DNA of 64,000 nt, taken from NCBI RefSeq assembly GCF_046105845.1, contig NZ_CP151004.1. One strand, 5' to 3'. The stretch comes from Escherichia coli. GTDB taxonomy: Bacteria; Pseudomonadota; Gammaproteobacteria; Enterobacterales; Enterobacteriaceae. Under the pieces are notes generated by a model, which was given only the letters and a program-made list of their open reading frames with translations, made no database searches and was not told the origin of the DNA. The translations under genes were made by a program, and so were the position numbers. Below, piece by piece: positions 6,670 to 57,486 of this stretch (position 1 is its first letter; each line of letters starts with the position of its first letter).

Positions 6670-6688
6670 AGTTATACAAAGTATAACT
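6670..6688. promoter_or_regulatory. 8-3-8 inverted repeat AGTTATACaaaGTATAACT immediately upstream of chpS; candidate autoregulatory operator
   Basis: Perfect palindrome a few bp upstream of the chpS SD; TA operons are typically autorepressed at such sites. Confidence 0.5.
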
Positions 6689-7205: not shown

Positions 7206-12757
<5,552 letters not shown>

Positions 12758-16461: not shown

Positions 16462-17373
16462 TCATACTGGTAACGCTAGTTGCTTTTTTTTAAACGCCTC
16501 AATGGTCGATTTATATTTCTCGCAAATCTTTTCTTCGGTAATATCACTATCTGCGGCCAGATTCGCACTTACTATCGCATCCACTTGTTCGGCTAATTCG
16601 ACTTGTTGGCAACCTGCATTAACCAGAAAATTATAAATAAGAGAGTAATCTTCATCCTCCAAAACAACAGAGGAACCATTACGAAAACGTTCATCCCCTC
16701 CATAGATTTTAAGCGCAAAGCCCAAAGATTCTATGACTATGGCAAAATTATCATCAATTATTTTTTCGTAAATATACCATCCATCGCATTCTTTAATTCC
16801 ACCTCCTGGAATTTGGAGGTCAAATTTACCCCGTTTTAATTTACTTACTATATCATCCAATACAGCATAACCTAAAGACACGTCACCAAACGCCTGGCGA
16901 ATATAACCTTTAATCCTTTCCGGTATGTCAGACTGTTTTTTCTGCAAAATATCCCAGGCATACAATCTTCTGTTTTGTTCTAACGGAAACTCGCGGTTTT
17001 TGAAATCCATGAATGAGTTATACTCATTTATTGTTATGGGAATTTCTTCGTATTCAAATCCACTGCCTCGCAATGTCATTATATATTCGGCACCGTTATC
17101 TTTAAGGCTGAAACTGATAAGAAACTTATCCATGGTGTTAACAGTTTCATTTTTTGATGAAAGTACCTGATAACTATTTTTATCAATCTGAGTTGCGCAA
17201 CGAAAGAACTCCCGCAAAGTTAACAGGCTATCATAATTTGAAATCCAATCTTTTTTATTAAATGCATGCTGGATATTGTTAAAAAAATTGTTTGAATGTG
17301 TTTTTGTATGCGATGATTTTATAAATAACTCCACCGCACCAATAAAATTATTGTGTCTGATCCTGGGTAACAT
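16462..17373 (-). CDS. ytfI: uncharacterised protein, low-GC gene
   Basis: 303-aa ORF in markedly AT-rich DNA between cysQ and ytfJ; no recognisable domain. Confidence 0.7.
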   Translation of the reverse strand: MLPRIRHNNFIGAVELFIKSSHTKTHSNNFFNNIQHAFNKKDWISNYDSLLTLREFFRCATQIDKNSYQVLSSKNETVNTMDKFLISFSLKDNGAEYIMTLRGSGFEYEEIPITINEYNSFMDFKNREFPLEQNRRLYAWDILQKKQSDIPERIKGYIRQAFGDVSLGYAVLDDIVSKLKRGKFDLQIPGGGIKECDGWYIYEKIIDDNFAIVIESLGFALKIYGGDERFRNGSSVVLEDEDYSLIYNFLVNAGCQQVELAEQVDAIVSANLAADSDITEEKICEKYKSTIEAFKKKQLALPV

Positions 17374-20471: not shown

Positions 20472-20586
20472 CGGCCTATAAATCATCAACCGCATCCGGC
20501 ACTTTTGTCGGATGCGATGCTGGCGCATCTTATCCGTTCTACAAGCCATGCACCGTTGGCCGGATAAGCGCAGCGCATCCGGCAGT
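20472..20586. repeat. REP/BIME-like palindromic units between cpdB and ytfH
   Basis: Repeated GCATCCGGCA / CCGGATAAGCGCAGCGCATCCGGC units. Confidence 0.75.
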
Positions 20587-20966
20587 TATGCCGCACGTTC
20601 ATCCCGCACCGCTAACACCTCGGGCAAATTCAGCTCAATCCAGTCCGCCAGTGCAGCAACCTTTTCGCTCACCTGCTCGCCCAGCGGCGTGAGGCTATAT
20701 TCCACATGCGGCGGCACCACCGGATACGCGATACGGTTAAGAAAACCATCCTGCTCTAGCGCCTGTAACGACTGCGCAAGCATCTTTTCACTTACCCCGC
20801 CGATTTTGCGCCGCAGGTCGCTAAAGCGATGAGTACCTTCGCGTAGCGCCACCAGAATCAACACCCCCCAACGGCTGGTGACGTGTTTCAAAACCTCGCG
20901 CGACGGACACTGTTCAGCGAAGAGATTTCCCTCTTTCAGTTGTTGCGACAGGCTAACCTGACTCAT
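20586..20966 (-). CDS. ytfH: HxlR-family transcriptional regulator
   Basis: Start trimmed to MSQVSLSQQLKEGNLFAEQCPSREVLKHVTSRWGVLILVAL… (126 aa); winged-helix HxlR signature. Confidence 0.85.
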   Translation of the reverse strand: MSQVSLSQQLKEGNLFAEQCPSREVLKHVTSRWGVLILVALREGTHRFSDLRRKIGGVSEKMLAQSLQALEQDGFLNRIAYPVVPPHVEYSLTPLGEQVSEKVAALADWIELNLPEVLAVRDERAA

Positions 20967-20989
20967 CTCATACTTACCTTTTTGTACGT

Positions 20990-21006
20990 ACTTACTAAAA
21001 GTAAGT
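20990..21006. promoter_or_regulatory. inverted repeat ACTTACTaaaAGTAAGT in ytfH-qorB divergent promoter region
   Basis: Perfect 7-3-7 palindrome between divergent start codons; candidate HxlR-type operator. Confidence 0.45.
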
Positions 21007-21054
21007 TTAGGTGTTAGCGTATTTAAACACAAGACAAAACGATGGAGACTTCCT

Positions 21055-21915
21055 ATGATCGCAATTACTGGTGCCACTGGCCAACTTGGTCACTATGTTA
21101 TTGAATCCTTGATGAAAACGGTTCCTGCCAGCCAAATAGTGGCTATCGTTCGTAATCCGGCAAAAGCCCAGGCCCTGGCAGCACAAGGCATTACCGTGCG
21201 TCAGGCTGACTACGGCGATGAAGCCGCACTGACATCTGCACTACAGGGAGTGGAAAAACTACTGCTGATCTCTTCCAGCGAAGTGGGTCAACGTGCCCCG
21301 CAGCATCGTAATGTTATTAATGCCGCAAAGGCGGCTGGCGTGAAATTTATCGCTTATACCAGCCTGCTACATGCAGATACCTCCCCGCTCGGCCTCGCCG
21401 ATGAGCACATCGAGACGGAGAAAATGCTGGCTGATTCTGGCATCGTTTACACCCTGCTGCGCAACGGCTGGTACAGCGAAAACTACCTCGCCAGCGCCCC
21501 GGCAGCACTGGAACACGGCGTATTTATCGGTGCCGCGGGCGATGGCAAAATTGCCTCGGCAACGCGGGCAGATTATGCGGCAGCTGCGGCGCTCGTGATT
21601 AGCGAAGCCGGTCACGAAGGCAAGGTTTACGAGCTGGCGGGCGATAGTGCCTGGACGCTGACACAGTTAGTGGCAGAGCTGACCAAACAGAGCGGAAAAT
21701 CGGTTACCTATCAAAATCTGAGCGAAACCGATTTCGCTGCGGCGCTGAAAAGCGTTGGCCTGCCTGACGGACTGGCGGATATGCTGGCGGATTCTGACGT
21801 TGGCGCATCGAAAGGCGGTCTGTTTGATGACAGCAAAACGCTGAGCAAATTGATTGGCCGCCCAACGACAACGTTAGCCGAAAGCGTAAGCCATCTTTTT
21901 AATGTTAATAACTAG
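21055..21915 (+). CDS. qorB: NAD(P)H:quinone oxidoreductase (NmrA-like)
   Basis: 286-aa ORF with N-terminal Rossmann motif ITGATGQLG. Confidence 0.9.
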   Translation: MIAITGATGQLGHYVIESLMKTVPASQIVAIVRNPAKAQALAAQGITVRQADYGDEAALTSALQGVEKLLLISSSEVGQRAPQHRNVINAAKAAGVKFIAYTSLLHADTSPLGLADEHIETEKMLADSGIVYTLLRNGWYSENYLASAPAALEHGVFIGAAGDGKIASATRADYAAAAALVISEAGHEGKVYELAGDSAWTLTQLVAELTKQSGKSVTYQNLSETDFAAALKSVGLPDGLADMLADSDVGASKGGLFDDSKTLSKLIGRPTTTLAESVSHLFNVNN

Positions 21916-22013
21916 TTAATTAAAGTGGCATCCTCCCGTATCCTCTCTGATAATGACGGGATGCGGGGAGCAATCATGTCTGCTTCCTGAACTTTCTTCT
22001 GACAGACCAATGG

Positions 22014-22988
22014 ATGCCAGTAATGATTAGCGGCGTGCTGTACGCCCTGTTAGCAGGGTTGATGTGGGGGCTTATTTTTGTCGGGCCGTTGATCGTGCCG
22101 GAATACCCGGCGATGTTGCAGTCGATGGGGCGTTATCTGGCGTTAGGGTTAATTGCGCTGCCCATTGCCTGGCTGGGACGCGTGCGTCTGCGTCAGTTGG
22201 CGCGTCGCGACTGGCTTACCGCCTTGATGCTCACCATGATGGGCAACCTCATCTATTACTTCTGCCTTGCCAGTGCCATTCAACGTACTGGCGCGCCTGT
22301 TTCCACGATGATTATTGGCACCCTGCCGGTGGTGATTCCCGTTTTTGCCAATCTGCTTTATAGCCAGCGCGACGGCAAACTCGCGTGGGGAAAACTCGCC
22401 CCGGCACTGATTTGTATTGGCATCGGCCTGGCGAGTGTGAATATTGCTGAGTTAAACCACGGACTCCCCGATTTTGACTGGGCACGTTATACCTCTGGCA
22501 TCGTGCTGGCGTTAGTTTCCGTGGTCTGCTGGGCATGGTATGCCCTGCGCAACGCCCGCTGGCTGCGGGAAAATCCCGACAAACATCCGATGATGTGGGC
22601 GACGGCGCAGGCGCTGGTCACGCTGCCGGTTTCGCTTATCGGCTATCTCGTCGCTTGTTACTGGCTGAATACGCAAACGCCGGACTTCTCCCTACCTTTT
22701 GGCCCCCGTCCGCTTGTATTTGTTAGCCTGATGATTGCGATAGCTGTGCTTTGCTCATGGGTCGGCGCACTTTGCTGGAACGTCGCCAGCCAGCGATTAC
22801 CAACGGTGATTCTCGGGCCACTGATTGTCTTCGAAACGCTGGCAGGTTTGCTGTACACCTTTTTGTTACGCCAGCAAATGCCGCCACTAATGACGCTGAG
22901 CGGTATCGCACTGTTAGTGGTTGGCGTGGTCATTGCGGTCAGAGCAAAACCAGAAAAACCTTTAACTGAATCTGTTTCAGAAAGTTGA
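22014..22988 (+). CDS. ytfF: DMT-superfamily (EamA-like) inner membrane transporter
   Basis: 324-aa polytopic membrane ORF; true start may be the internal Met at 22023. Confidence 0.82.
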   Translation: MPVMISGVLYALLAGLMWGLIFVGPLIVPEYPAMLQSMGRYLALGLIALPIAWLGRVRLRQLARRDWLTALMLTMMGNLIYYFCLASAIQRTGAPVSTMIIGTLPVVIPVFANLLYSQRDGKLAWGKLAPALICIGIGLASVNIAELNHGLPDFDWARYTSGIVLALVSVVCWAWYALRNARWLRENPDKHPMMWATAQALVTLPVSLIGYLVACYWLNTQTPDFSLPFGPRPLVFVSLMIAIAVLCSWVGALCWNVASQRLPTVILGPLIVFETLAGLLYTFLLRQQMPPLMTLSGIALLVVGVVIAVRAKPEKPLTESVSES

Positions 22989-56535: not shown

Positions 56536-57486
56536 TCAGCCTGCGATAGCACCAACAACCTGTAATACTTCGTCACGCGCCTGTTCTGGTTTTTCACTAT
56601 CAAGCCAGTGAACCCCTTCCCAACCACGCAGCCAGGTTATCTGCCGCTTCGCCAACTGTCTCGTGGCGCAAACACCTCGATAAACCATCTCATCGTATGA
56701 GATTTCGCCTTCAAGGTAAGACCACATCTGGCGATAACCCACACAACGAATGGAAGGCAAATCCGTATGCAAATCTCCTCGGGCAAAAAGAGCCCGGACT
56801 TCTGCTTCAAAACCTGAAGCCAACATCTGATGAAAACGCTGCTCAATTCGTTGATGGAGCAGTTCACGGCTCGCCGGGGCGATGGCGAACTGATGCACCT
56901 GATACGGTAGAGCGTCTCCTGACGTTTGCGTCAGTTCCGTTAAAGTTTTACCCGAAATGAAAAAAACTTCCAGTGCCCGGGAAAGCCTTTGTGGATCATT
57001 TGGATGAATCCTTGCTGCCGCAACCGGATCTACCTCCTGAAGTTGACGATGCAATGACTCCCAACCTTGCTCTGCCGCCTGTTGCTCAATTCTGGCCCGC
57101 ACTTCCGGGTCTGCCGACGGTAGCGGCGACAACCCTTCCAGCAATGCCTTGAAATACAACATCGTACCGCCCACTAACAGTGGGATCCGCCCCGCTGCGG
57201 TGATATCGGCCATTTCCGCCAGCGCATCGCGGCGAAAATCAGCAGCCGAGTAAGCCTGCGACGGATCGCGAATATCCAGCAATCGGTGCGGCGCGGCGAG
57301 TAACTCTTCAGCGTTCGGCTTCGCCGTCCCGATATCCATCCCTTTGTAAATAAGGGCAGAATCAACGCTTATCAACTCTACTGGTAAAATTTTACGCAGC
57401 TCAATGGCTAACGCCGTTTTACCGGAGGCCGTCGGCCCCATCAAAAAAATCGCCTTAGGCAGGCTCGCCTTACTGATATCACTCAT
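56536..57486 (-). CDS. miaA: tRNA dimethylallyltransferase
   Basis: 316-aa ORF with P-loop (GPTASGKT). Confidence 0.95.

What the first reader, a model, noticed from the sequence alone, without database searches (positions are those of the whole stretch)
20990..21006. Perfect palindrome in the ytfH-qorB divergent promoter region
ACTTACTaaaAGTAAGT lies midway between the divergent starts of an HxlR-family regulator (ytfH) and an NAD(P)H:quinone oxidoreductase (qorB), consistent with a local redox-responsive regulator-target pair. I am not aware of a characterised operator here.
Basis: inference. Interest (0 to 1): 0.4.

Follow-up and report, generated by a model that had tools for sequence, protein, structure and literature searches.

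The report
Conserved YtfH operator controlling qorB
The palindrome is real and is half of a 35-base, deeply conserved binding site, most likely where the uncharacterised E. coli regulator YtfH sits to shut off the neighbouring quinone reductase gene qorB; this is an ordinary local repressor-operator pair of a known kind, but with an unusually well-conserved operator.

Summary
ACTTACT-AAA-AGTAAGT is at 20990..21006, in the 88-nt spacer between ytfH (HxlR/DUF24 family, minus strand) and qorB (QOR2/YtfG quinone reductase, plus strand). Alone it is weak evidence: 8 such 7-3-7 repeats occur in the window, and P is about 0.07 in shuffles of the spacer.

Comparative data change this. In 66 of 80 loci encoding YtfH relatives, from Enterobacteria to Streptomyces and Gemmatimonadota, a qorB homolog is divergently adjacent. 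In 61 of those the spacer carries the same 35-nt block, here 20972..21006. It has four ACTTAC-like half-sites forming two adjacent dyads.

A TAnnnT hexamer lies at a fixed distance in 44 of 57 distinct sequences, which places the qorB -35 inside the palindrome. Half-sites vary without compensation, so this is a protein-binding site, not a hairpin.

The sole cysteine of YtfH (C20) and its recognition helix are invariant. A 2025 preprint reports that ytfH knockdown raises qorB about 24-fold. The C. glutamicum counterpart QorR is a characterised redox-sensing repressor.

This is a new member of a known kind, of moderate interest. Binding, redox response and promoter assignments remain inferred.

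The parts
20586..20966 (-). ytfH: 126-aa HxlR/DUF24-family winged-helix regulator with a single cysteine, C20, in an invariant CPSR motif
   Evidence: ORF. Pfam PF01638, E 2.6e-32. PDB 1YYV (listed only as a putative transcriptional regulator), E 3e-70. RefSeq annotation ytfH. C20 is invariant in alignment A1 and in the locus-derived homologs.
21055..21915 (+). qorB (ytfG, QOR2): NAD(P)H:quinone oxidoreductase, the presumed regulated target
   Evidence: ORF. Pfam NmrA and NAD_binding_10. PDB 2ZCU/2ZCV 'oxidoreductase ytfG', E 1.7e-176. RefSeq annotation qorB. A qorB homolog is divergently adjacent to the ytfH homolog in 66 of 80 loci.
20972..21006 (.). Composite operator, 35 nt: ACTTAC-CTTTTT-GTACGT|ACTTAC-TAAAA-GTAAGT. 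Consensus across phyla: ACTTACCttnatGTnCGTACTTACnaanaGTtAGT
   Evidence: PWM alignment of 61 loci. It is the only hit of at least 8 bits in the 64-kb window, and every hit of at least 15 bits in 410 kb of loci lies in the ytfH-qorB spacer. Mean identity to the window is 76%, against 28% for a flanking control.
20972..20989 (.). Left dyad (site A): half-sites ACTTAC (20972..20977) and GTACGT (20984..20989), 6-nt spacer. The second half-site is degenerate (GTnnGT).
   Evidence: Information content and pair counts. It abuts the ytfH start codon: an in-frame start lies 0-9 nt from the first half-site in most loci.
20990..21006 (.). Most other species have GTTAGT in the right half.
20992..20997 (+). 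Candidate qorB -35 hexamer TTACTA, embedded in the left half of the palindrome (inferred)
   Evidence: It lies 17 nt upstream of the phased TAnnnT. The hexamer at this position starts with TT in 56 of 57 distinct loci and is mostly TTACnn.
21015..21020 (+). Candidate qorB -10 hexamer TAGCGT (inferred)
   Evidence: TAnnnT occurs at exactly this offset from the operator in 44 of 57 distinct loci, and in 3 or fewer at any other offset.
20977..20980 (-). Candidate ytfH Shine-Dalgarno AAGG, overlapping the end of the first half-site and the spacer of site A (inferred)
   Evidence: Read from the sequence. The same GGTAAGT/AAGG context directly precedes the start codon in many loci.
20998..21027 (-). 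Candidate ytfH promoter TTTAAA-18-TACTTT on the minus strand (-35 at 21027..21022, -10 at 21003..20998). Low confidence.
   Evidence: Read from the sequence. A bottom-strand TAnnnT occurs at this or the adjacent offset in 26 of 57 loci, less consistently than the qorB -10.

Best explanation
The palindrome is the promoter-proximal half of a 35-bp composite operator (20972..21006) for the local HxlR/DUF24-family regulator YtfH, the E. coli counterpart of Corynebacterium glutamicum QorR.

**Proposed mechanism**
- Reduced YtfH dimers bind two adjacent dyads, ACTTAC-N6-GTnnGT and ACTTAC-N5-GT(A/T)AGT.
- The right dyad covers the -35 hexamer and spacer of the qorB promoter and probably the -10 of the divergent ytfH promoter. 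The left dyad lies over the ytfH leader and ribosome-binding region.
- Occupancy therefore blocks RNA polymerase at qorB and probably autoregulates ytfH.
- Oxidants or electrophiles such as quinones and diamide modify the single cysteine, C20. By analogy with 1-Cys QorR this would form an intersubunit disulfide. YtfH then leaves the DNA and QorB is made.

**Shown here**
- The sequence and the gene identities.
- Conservation of the gene pair and of the operator.
- The phased -10-like hexamer.
- Absence of RNA-type covariation.
- Invariance of C20 and of the recognition helix.

**Shown by others**
- qorB is derepressed on ytfH knockdown.
- The repressor and redox mechanism of QorR.

**Inferred**
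- That YtfH is the protein that binds.
- The stoichiometry of two dimers.
- The exact promoter elements and autoregulation.
- The redox trigger in E. coli.
For: **Gene identities**
- ytfH matches PF01638 (HxlR); qorB is NmrA-like and matches PDB 2ZCU.

**Pairing**
- 66 of 80 loci encoding YtfH relatives have a divergent qorB homolog. They span Gamma-, Beta- and Alphaproteobacteria, Myxococcota, Desulfuromonadota, Gemmatimonadota and Actinomycetota.

**Operator**
- A 35-nt block aligns without gaps in 61 of those 66 loci.
- The PWM gives 52 bits at 20972..21006 and no other hit of at least 8 bits in the 64-kb window. In 410 kb of loci, every hit of at least 15 bits is in the spacer.
- The block is 76% identical to E. 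coli on average, against 28% for the adjacent control. It stays at 31-46% GC in genomes of 68-73% GC.

**Co-variation of protein and site**
- The motif is present in 61 of 66 qorB-linked loci and in 1 of 14 unlinked paralog loci.
- The recognition helix GVSEKMLAQTLQ is invariant in loci with the motif. Paralogs differ at S49N, G56D, A64S, Q68H, V83T and V84N.

**Promoter geometry**
- TAnnnT is at a fixed offset in 44 of 57 loci.
- A TT-initial hexamer (56 of 57) lies 17 nt upstream, inside the palindrome.
- The dyad centre is therefore near -29, a repressor position.

**Direction of regulation**
- CRISPRi of ytfH raises qorB by log2 4.6, and qorB is the only differentially expressed gene.

**Family precedent**
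- QorR is a DUF24 repressor of a quinone oxidoreductase that senses diamide and H2O2 (PMC3351151). It is a 1-Cys type with an intersubunit disulfide (PMC11633110).
- YodB binds TACT-N7-AGTA, which has the same 11-bp half-site periodicity (PMC8063818).
- C20 is the only cysteine and is invariant.

**Within E. coli**
- The 42-nt operator region is 100% identical in 3903 of 5406 genomes and occurs once per genome.
Against: - No binding experiment exists for YtfH. The preprint says so explicitly.
- The CRISPRi effect was seen in only about 4% of cells. dCas9 sitting next to a divergent promoter could itself disturb the region.
- Part of the conservation must come from promoter and ribosome-binding-site functions embedded in the block. 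It cannot be separated from operator function by sequence alone.
- The two dyads have different spacers (6 and 5 nt) and the second half-site is degenerate, so the two-dimer model is uncertain.
- The ytfH promoter could not be placed consistently.
- I could not obtain the C. glutamicum qorR-qor2 spacer or the Ehira 2009 paper, so I could not check that the mapped QorR site matches.
- The simple sigma-70 scan did not call the proposed qorB promoter. Its only call overlaps the qorB start codon.
Confidence: 0.8

Rival explanations
1. YtfH binds here but acts as an activator, like its family members HxlR and HypR, or as a MerR-like spacer-binding activator, rather than as a repressor.
For: HypR and HxlR, in the same DUF24 family, are activators (PMC3351151; PDB names). 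The proposed qorB promoter is weak (TTACTA-17-TAGCGT), as activator-dependent promoters often are.
Against: Knockdown of ytfH increases qorB. The dyad centre falls near -29, within the core promoter, and the spacer is 17 nt rather than the 19-20 nt of MerR-type promoters. QorR is a repressor.
Confidence: 0.05
2. The conserved block is mainly core-promoter and translation-initiation sequence (-35, -10, Shine-Dalgarno, overlapping divergent promoters), and the dyad symmetry is incidental.
For: The block contains a phased TAnnnT, a TT-initial hexamer 17 nt upstream, and an AAGG next to the ytfH start codon.
Against: Promoter and ribosome-binding-site signals do not normally keep about 20 specific bases fixed from E. 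coli to Streptomyces, which have different sigma preferences and 70% GC genomes. The right-hand half-site (21001..21006) and the second half-site (20984..20989) have no promoter role for qorB yet are conserved. The block co-occurs with one regulator subfamily and is absent next to its paralogs.
Confidence: 0.05
3. A different DNA-binding protein, such as a global stress regulator, rather than YtfH, recognises the palindrome.
For: No direct binding data exist for YtfH.
Against: The site travels with the ytfH gene across phyla and onto plasmids. It is retained upstream of the regulator even where qorB is missing (L045). Its half-site periodicity fits the family. No global regulator is shared by all these taxa.
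Confidence: 0.04
4. The inverted repeats act as a nucleic-acid structure: an RNA hairpin in the ytfH or qorB leader, or a DNA cruciform.
For: The minus-strand 40-mer can fold with the outer half-sites paired, -9.1 kcal/mol, z = -2.3.
Against: The whole spacer folds no better than shuffles on either strand (z +0.6 and -0.4). There is no Rfam match. Variable positions change without compensation: position pair 24/34 is complementary in only 26 of 57 sequences, pair 5/18 in 6 of 57, with only one apparent compensatory double change. Perfect arms occur in only 12 of 57. What is conserved is base identity, not pairing.
Confidence: 0.03
5. The palindrome is a chance occurrence with no function.
For: Eight 7-3-7 repeats occur in the window, and P is about 0.07 in spacer shuffles.
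Against: The block is conserved at the same position in 61 loci from several phyla.
Confidence: 0.01

Closest known systems
QorR-qor2 of Corynebacterium glutamicum (Ehira et al. 2009, J Biol Chem 284:16736)
   Same: A DUF24/HxlR-family regulator controls a quinone oxidoreductase. [quoted passage not shown] It is a 1-Cys type inactivated by an intersubunit disulfide (PMC11633110). YtfH likewise has a single, invariant N-terminal cysteine. SEED/RAST annotates enterobacterial ytfH orthologs as QorR, in one subsystem with ytfG (names).
   Different: The E. coli protein has never been tested for DNA binding or redox response. I could not retrieve the C. glutamicum spacer or paper, so identity of the operators and strict orthology are not verified here. 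That qor2 is a QorB/YtfG-type enzyme and is divergently arranged is from my memory of that paper.
YodB (Bacillus subtilis) and QsrR (Staphylococcus aureus), quinone-sensing DUF24 repressors
   Same: Same protein family: YodB PDB 5HS7 matches YtfH at E 9e-10. They use thiol-based sensing of quinones and diamide. The operator TACT-N7-AGTA is palindromic with 11 bp between half-site centres and is contacted in two consecutive major grooves (PMC8063818). The E. coli site even contains TACT-N7-AGTA (20989..21003).
   Different: The targets differ (azoreductase, nitroreductase). The best-supported dyad here is ACTTAC-N5-GTAAGT, centred 2 bp away from the TACT-N7-AGTA reading. Here there are two tandem dyads and a divergent regulator-enzyme cassette.
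HypR and HxlR (Bacillus subtilis), DUF24 activators
   Same: HxlR-type winged helix with a conserved N-terminal cysteine, and inverted-repeat operators. The HypR box is the 7-2-7 repeat GTATCAAAATTGATAC, present at both the target and the regulator's own promoter. From memory, HxlR uses two adjacent binding regions.
   Different: Both activate transcription from upstream sites. The YtfH site overlaps the core promoter, and knockdown derepresses the target.

Membership tests
HxlR / DUF24 (MarR-like) thiol-based redox-sensing regulators | HxlR-type winged helix-turn-helix domain (Pfam PF01638) | tested here: met
   PF01638, E 2.6e-32, residues 29-115. PDB relatives are 1YYV, HxlR 7BZD/7BZE, HypR 4A5M/4A5N and YodB 5HS7.
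HxlR / DUF24 (MarR-like) thiol-based redox-sensing regulators | Conserved redox-active cysteine at the N-terminus of helix alpha1 | tested here: met
   C20-P21 are invariant, and S22 and R23 at least 90% conserved, in 23 diverse homologs (A1) and in the locus-derived proteins. The family feature is described in PMC3351151.
HxlR / DUF24 (MarR-like) thiol-based redox-sensing regulators | Dimer binds a (pseudo)palindromic operator with half-sites about one helical turn apart | tested here: inconclusive
   The sequence fits: ACTTAC-N5-GTAAGT has 11 bp between half-site centres, as in the YodB box TACT-N7-AGTA. Binding itself was not tested.
HxlR / DUF24 (MarR-like) thiol-based redox-sensing regulators | DNA binding or activity changes on thiol oxidation or alkylation | not testable with these tools
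   This needs EMSA with and without diamide, quinone and DTT, and a C20S mutant.
QorR-QOR2 regulator-enzyme pair | Regulator gene adjacent and divergent to a QOR2 (YtfG/NmrA-like) quinone oxidoreductase gene | tested here: met
   In the window, ytfH is on the minus strand and qorB on the plus strand, 88 nt apart. QorB matches PDB 2ZCU. The arrangement is conserved in 66 of 80 loci.
QorR-QOR2 regulator-enzyme pair | Regulator represses the oxidoreductase gene | not testable with these tools
   Published support only: CRISPRi of ytfH raises qorB by log2 4.6 (bioRxiv 10.64898/2025.12.20.695731). The operator position over the -35 and spacer is consistent with repression.
QorR-QOR2 regulator-enzyme pair | 1-Cys type sensor | tested here: met
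   The 126-aa YtfH sequence contains one cysteine, C20. QorR is described as 1-Cys type.
QorR-QOR2 regulator-enzyme pair | Orthology to C. glutamicum QorR, with the same operator as the footprinted QorR site | not tested
   The C. glutamicum sequence and the Ehira 2009 paper could not be obtained. Only annotation-level naming as QorR is available.
Structured RNA leader or intrinsic terminator | Stable fold supported by compensatory changes, or a match to a known RNA family | tested here: not met
   No Rfam hit at E up to 1. Fold z-scores are +0.6 and -0.4 for the spacer. Mismatches between arms are uncompensated in most species.

The most novel reading that the evidence does not exclude
The regulator, its 35-bp operator, both overlapping promoters and the reductase gene form one self-contained redox/quinone-responsive cassette. 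Its cis-element is kept almost base-for-base across at least five phyla, including 70% GC actinobacteria, and on conjugative Klebsiella/E. coli plasmids. It would be a horizontally mobile switch that works with very different host transcription machineries. That degree of operator conservation is rare for a local regulator, and the cassette could serve as a broad-host-range electrophile biosensor.
Probability: 0.5. Interest if true: 0.55.

Novelty: new member of a known kind. Interest (0 to 1): 0.4.

Why it matters
- YtfH is one of the few dozen E. coli K-12 transcription factors still listed as uncharacterised.
- This analysis gives it a precise, testable binding site with four half-sites at single-base resolution. 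It also gives a single target and a mechanism borrowed from a characterised counterpart.
- It explains the recent knockdown phenotype, qorB derepression, in cis terms.
- The cross-phylum conservation gives a ready-made position weight matrix for annotating the same switch in hundreds of genomes and on resistance and virulence plasmids.
- It suggests which residues separate this subfamily from its paralogs.
- It does not reveal a new kind of regulation.

Tried and rejected
- **Palindrome statistics alone.** These were not significant, so I did not rely on them.
- **Consensus sigma-70 scan.** It gave only AAGACA-17-TATGAT, which overlaps the qorB start codon. I rejected this as the qorB promoter.
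- **Promoter in Shimada 2014.** The promoter listed there for qorB (TCGACA-15-TACATT) is not present within 20501..21400, and neither hexamer occurs within 1 kb on either side. I ignored it.
- **RNA element.** There is no Rfam hit, no significant fold and no covariation. Rejected.
- **TACT-N7-AGTA (YodB-type) dyad centred at 20996.** This reading has fewer symmetric conserved pairs than ACTTAC-N5-GTAAGT centred at 20998. I kept it only as a resemblance.
- **Obtaining the C. glutamicum qorR-qor2 locus or the Ehira 2009 paper.** The paper is not held. Two protein searches seeded with actinobacterial homologs returned no Corynebacterium entry. Searches for cg1552/cg1553 gave no operator sequence.
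- **Search of the paper library for the operator strings.** The 17-mer and the forward-strand 12-mer GTACGTACTTAC have no occurrence. The reverse-complement 12-mer occurs once, in an unrelated oat paper, and the shorter 9-mers hit only unrelated papers.
- **Other regulon members.** There is no second site in the 64-kb window and only one place per E. coli genome at BLAST sensitivity. A whole-genome PWM scan was not possible with the sequence I could hold.
- **The qorB/ytfG literature search** was swamped by unrelated matches.

Full report
**1. The observation**

The window reads ACTTACTAAAAGTAAGT at 20990..21006. It has two perfectly complementary 7-bp arms around an AAA spacer.

It lies in the 88-nt spacer between two divergent ORFs.
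- One is a 126-aa protein on the minus strand (20586..20966).
- The other is a 286-aa protein on the plus strand (21055..21915).

The centre of the repeat is 32 nt from the first start codon and 57 nt from the second.

Taken alone the repeat is unremarkable.
- The window holds 8 perfect 7-3-7 repeats and 85 with spacers of 0-10 nt.
- 7.3% of shuffles of the spacer contain a 7-bp-arm inverted repeat.

**2. The neighbours**

- The minus-strand protein matches Pfam HxlR (PF01638, E 2.6e-32) and the PDB entry 1YYV (E 3e-70). It is more distantly related to HxlR, HypR and YodB.
- The plus-strand protein is NmrA-like and matches PDB 2ZCU/2ZCV 'oxidoreductase ytfG'.
- The region is 95-99% identical to E. 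coli genomes, where the genes are annotated ytfH and qorB, flanked by cpdB and ytfF.
- The K-12 spacer differs from the window only at its two terminal bases.

**3. Comparative evidence**

*Gene pairing.* A profile of 23 YtfH relatives (A1) was used to fetch 80 loci from one-genome-per-species contigs.
- In 66 of them a qorB homolog (36-86% identity) sits immediately upstream on the opposite strand.
- These loci come from Enterobacterales, Pseudomonas, Halomonas, Xanthomonas, Haemophilus, Acinetobacter, many Beta- and Alphaproteobacteria, Myxococcota, Desulfuromonadota, Gemmatimonadota, and Streptomyces and other Actinomycetota.

*The shared block.* The spacers share an ungapped block. Its consensus is nAnACTTACCttnatGTnCGTACTTACnaanaGTtAGT-N8-TAnnnT, which corresponds to window 20969..21020.

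The block has four half-sites related to ACTTAC:
- 20972..20977
- 20984..20989 (degenerate, GTnnGT)
- 20990..20995
- 21001..21006

These form two adjacent dyads.

*Specificity of the block.*
- A 35-nt PWM scores 52 bits here and finds nothing else at 8 bits or more in the 64-kb window.
- In 410 kb of fetched loci, every hit of at least 15 bits is in the regulator-reductase spacer.
- The core is on average 76% identical to E. coli, against 28% for the neighbouring 30 nt.
- It stays AT-rich (31-46% GC) in genomes of about 70% GC.
- In E. coli the 42-nt region is identical in 3903 of 5406 genomes and occurs once per genome.

**4. Protein site or nucleic-acid structure?**

The evidence favours a protein-binding site.
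- Positions that vary do so without compensation. Most species have GTTAGT opposite ACTTAC.
- Only 12 of 57 distinct sites have perfect 6-bp arms.
- There is no Rfam match.
- The spacer folds no better than shuffles.
- So specific bases are conserved, not pairing.

**5. Link between site and regulator**

- The motif is present in 61 of 66 qorB-linked loci and in only 1 of 14 loci that encode paralogs without qorB.
- That one exception, an Acinetobacter locus, keeps the site upstream of the regulator although no divergent reductase is present.
- The recognition helix GVSEKMLAQTLQ and the wing are essentially invariant in loci with the motif.
- The paralogs without the motif differ consistently at S49N, G56D, A64S, Q68H, V83T and V84N.

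**6. Promoter geometry (inferred)**

- A TAnnnT hexamer occurs exactly 8 nt after the last half-site in 44 of 57 distinct loci, and in 3 or fewer at any other offset. Here it is TAGCGT, 21015..21020.
- Seventeen nt upstream, the hexamer begins with TT in 56 of 57 loci. Here it is TTACTA, 20992..20997, inside the palindrome.
- This puts the right dyad centre near -29 of a qorB promoter, which is a repressor position.
- The left dyad abuts the ytfH start codon. An in-frame start lies 0-9 nt away in most loci, and the dyad contains an AAGG Shine-Dalgarno-like sequence. It is therefore downstream of any ytfH promoter, which suggests autoregulation.
- The ytfH promoter itself could not be placed consistently.
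- The generic sigma-70 scan did not detect the proposed promoter.

**7. Literature**

- E. coli YtfH is listed as uncharacterised.
- A Dec 2025 preprint reports that CRISPRi of ytfH raises qorB by log2 4.6. qorB was the only differentially expressed gene, the effect was seen in about 4% of cells, and the authors note that no binding data existed.
- C. glutamicum QorR is a DUF24 repressor of a quinone oxidoreductase that senses diamide and H2O2. It is a 1-Cys sensor inactivated by an intersubunit disulfide.
- YtfH has one cysteine, C20, which is invariant in all homologs examined.
- YodB, in the same family, binds TACT-N7-AGTA with the same 11-bp half-site periodicity. HypR binds a 7-2-7 repeat.
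- The operator's 17-mer and its forward-strand 12-mer were not found in the paper library.

**8. Conclusion**

The best explanation is that reduced YtfH occupies this composite operator, occludes the qorB promoter and probably its own, and is released when C20 is oxidised or alkylated. I hold this at about 0.8 confidence for the core claim.

Rivals are less likely:
- an activator mode;
- pure promoter and ribosome-binding-site conservation;
- a different binding protein;
- a nucleic-acid structure;
- chance.

Not shown here, and needing experiment: binding by YtfH, stoichiometry, transcription starts, and the redox response in E. coli. I also could not compare with the footprinted QorR site of C. 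glutamicum.

**9. Novelty and score**

- The kind of system is well known: a DUF24 thiol-switch repressor with a palindromic operator next to a detoxifying reductase.
- The E. coli pairing had been predicted by annotation and recently supported by expression data.
- What is added here:
  - the operator itself and its two-dyad architecture;
  - its embedding in the promoter;
  - its exceptional conservation across phyla and on plasmids.
- I rate it a new member of a known kind, with interest 0.4.

Noticed in passing
L083:2100-3443 (plasmid pJ53-KPC_Vir, NZ_CP157326.2 about 170131..171474); operator at L083:2491-2535: A 360-kb E. coli/Klebsiella-type KPC-virulence plasmid carries a paralogous cassette. 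It has an HxlR regulator (60% identical to YtfH) divergent from a QorB-like SDR (61% identical). The operator between them is the same except for a degenerate fourth half-site: ACTAACCTTTTTGTAAGTACTTACTAAAATAATCT. A TetR regulator and a nitroreductase lie next to it. YtfH homologs occur on 87 plasmid records, 27 of them Klebsiella and 35 conjugative, although several records of about 4-5 Mb labelled as plasmids look like chromosomes.
   Followed up: partly
L020:1888-1940, L044:2375-2427, L055:2393-2445 and other Streptomyces loci: In Actinomycetota and a myxobacterium the PWM also hits the opposite strand, shifted by 18 bp. This reveals a third dyad (for example GTTAGTAC-N7-TAnGGTAAGT) that overlaps the -10-like TAnnnT of the reductase promoter. 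E. coli lacks this third site.
   Followed up: partly
L060, L064-L066, L068, L069, L072, L074, L076, L078, L081, L082: A Streptomyces/Lentzea paralog group (48-55% identical to YtfH) has no divergent qorB, no operator motif, and consistent changes in the helix and wing (RFN, DGVSEKMLSQTLH, PTNPP). In L064 the divergent ORF looks like a WrbA/flavodoxin-type quinone reductase, and in L059 like another NAD(P)-binding reductase. This suggests sister regulator-reductase pairs with a different, unidentified operator.
   Followed up: partly
L045:2412-2446 (Acinetobacter sp. Marseille-Q1618): The operator (30.6 bits) is retained upstream of the regulator, but there is no divergent qorB. The upstream genes are unrelated and on the same strand. 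This is consistent with autoregulation surviving loss or relocation of the target.
   Followed up: partly
L063, L067, L073 (Couchioplanes, Rhodococcus, Nocardia): These loci are qorB-linked but have a rearranged or weak operator. Pieces such as CGAAAAGTAAGTGC and repeated GTGAGT remain, and the proteins show partly paralog-like helix residues. The operator may therefore differ in Mycobacteriales, which matters for comparison with C. glutamicum QorR.
   Followed up: no
window 21964..21989: A terminator-like hairpin (9 pairs, followed by a T-rich tail) lies between qorB and ytfF. Two promoter-like sites lie at 21925..21954 and 21999..22027, so qorB may be monocistronic. ytfF follows qorB only in Enterobacteriaceae loci (L003-L009).
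   Followed up: no
window 6671..6687, 17012..17028, 56687..56703 and others: Other perfect 7-3-7 inverted repeats are in the window: GTTATACAAAGTATAAC, AATGAGTTATACTCATT and ATCTCATCGTATGAGAT, plus four GC-rich ones at 10897, 15244, 17601 and 30228. None was examined.
   Followed up: no
window 20560..21120 compared with E. coli genomes: Only 11 of 5414 genomes are at least 99% identical to the window over this 561-bp stretch, and most are 95-99%. The 88-nt spacer, by contrast, is identical in 3255 genomes. The source strain is somewhat divergent in the coding flanks, while the spacer is under tighter constraint.
   Followed up: no
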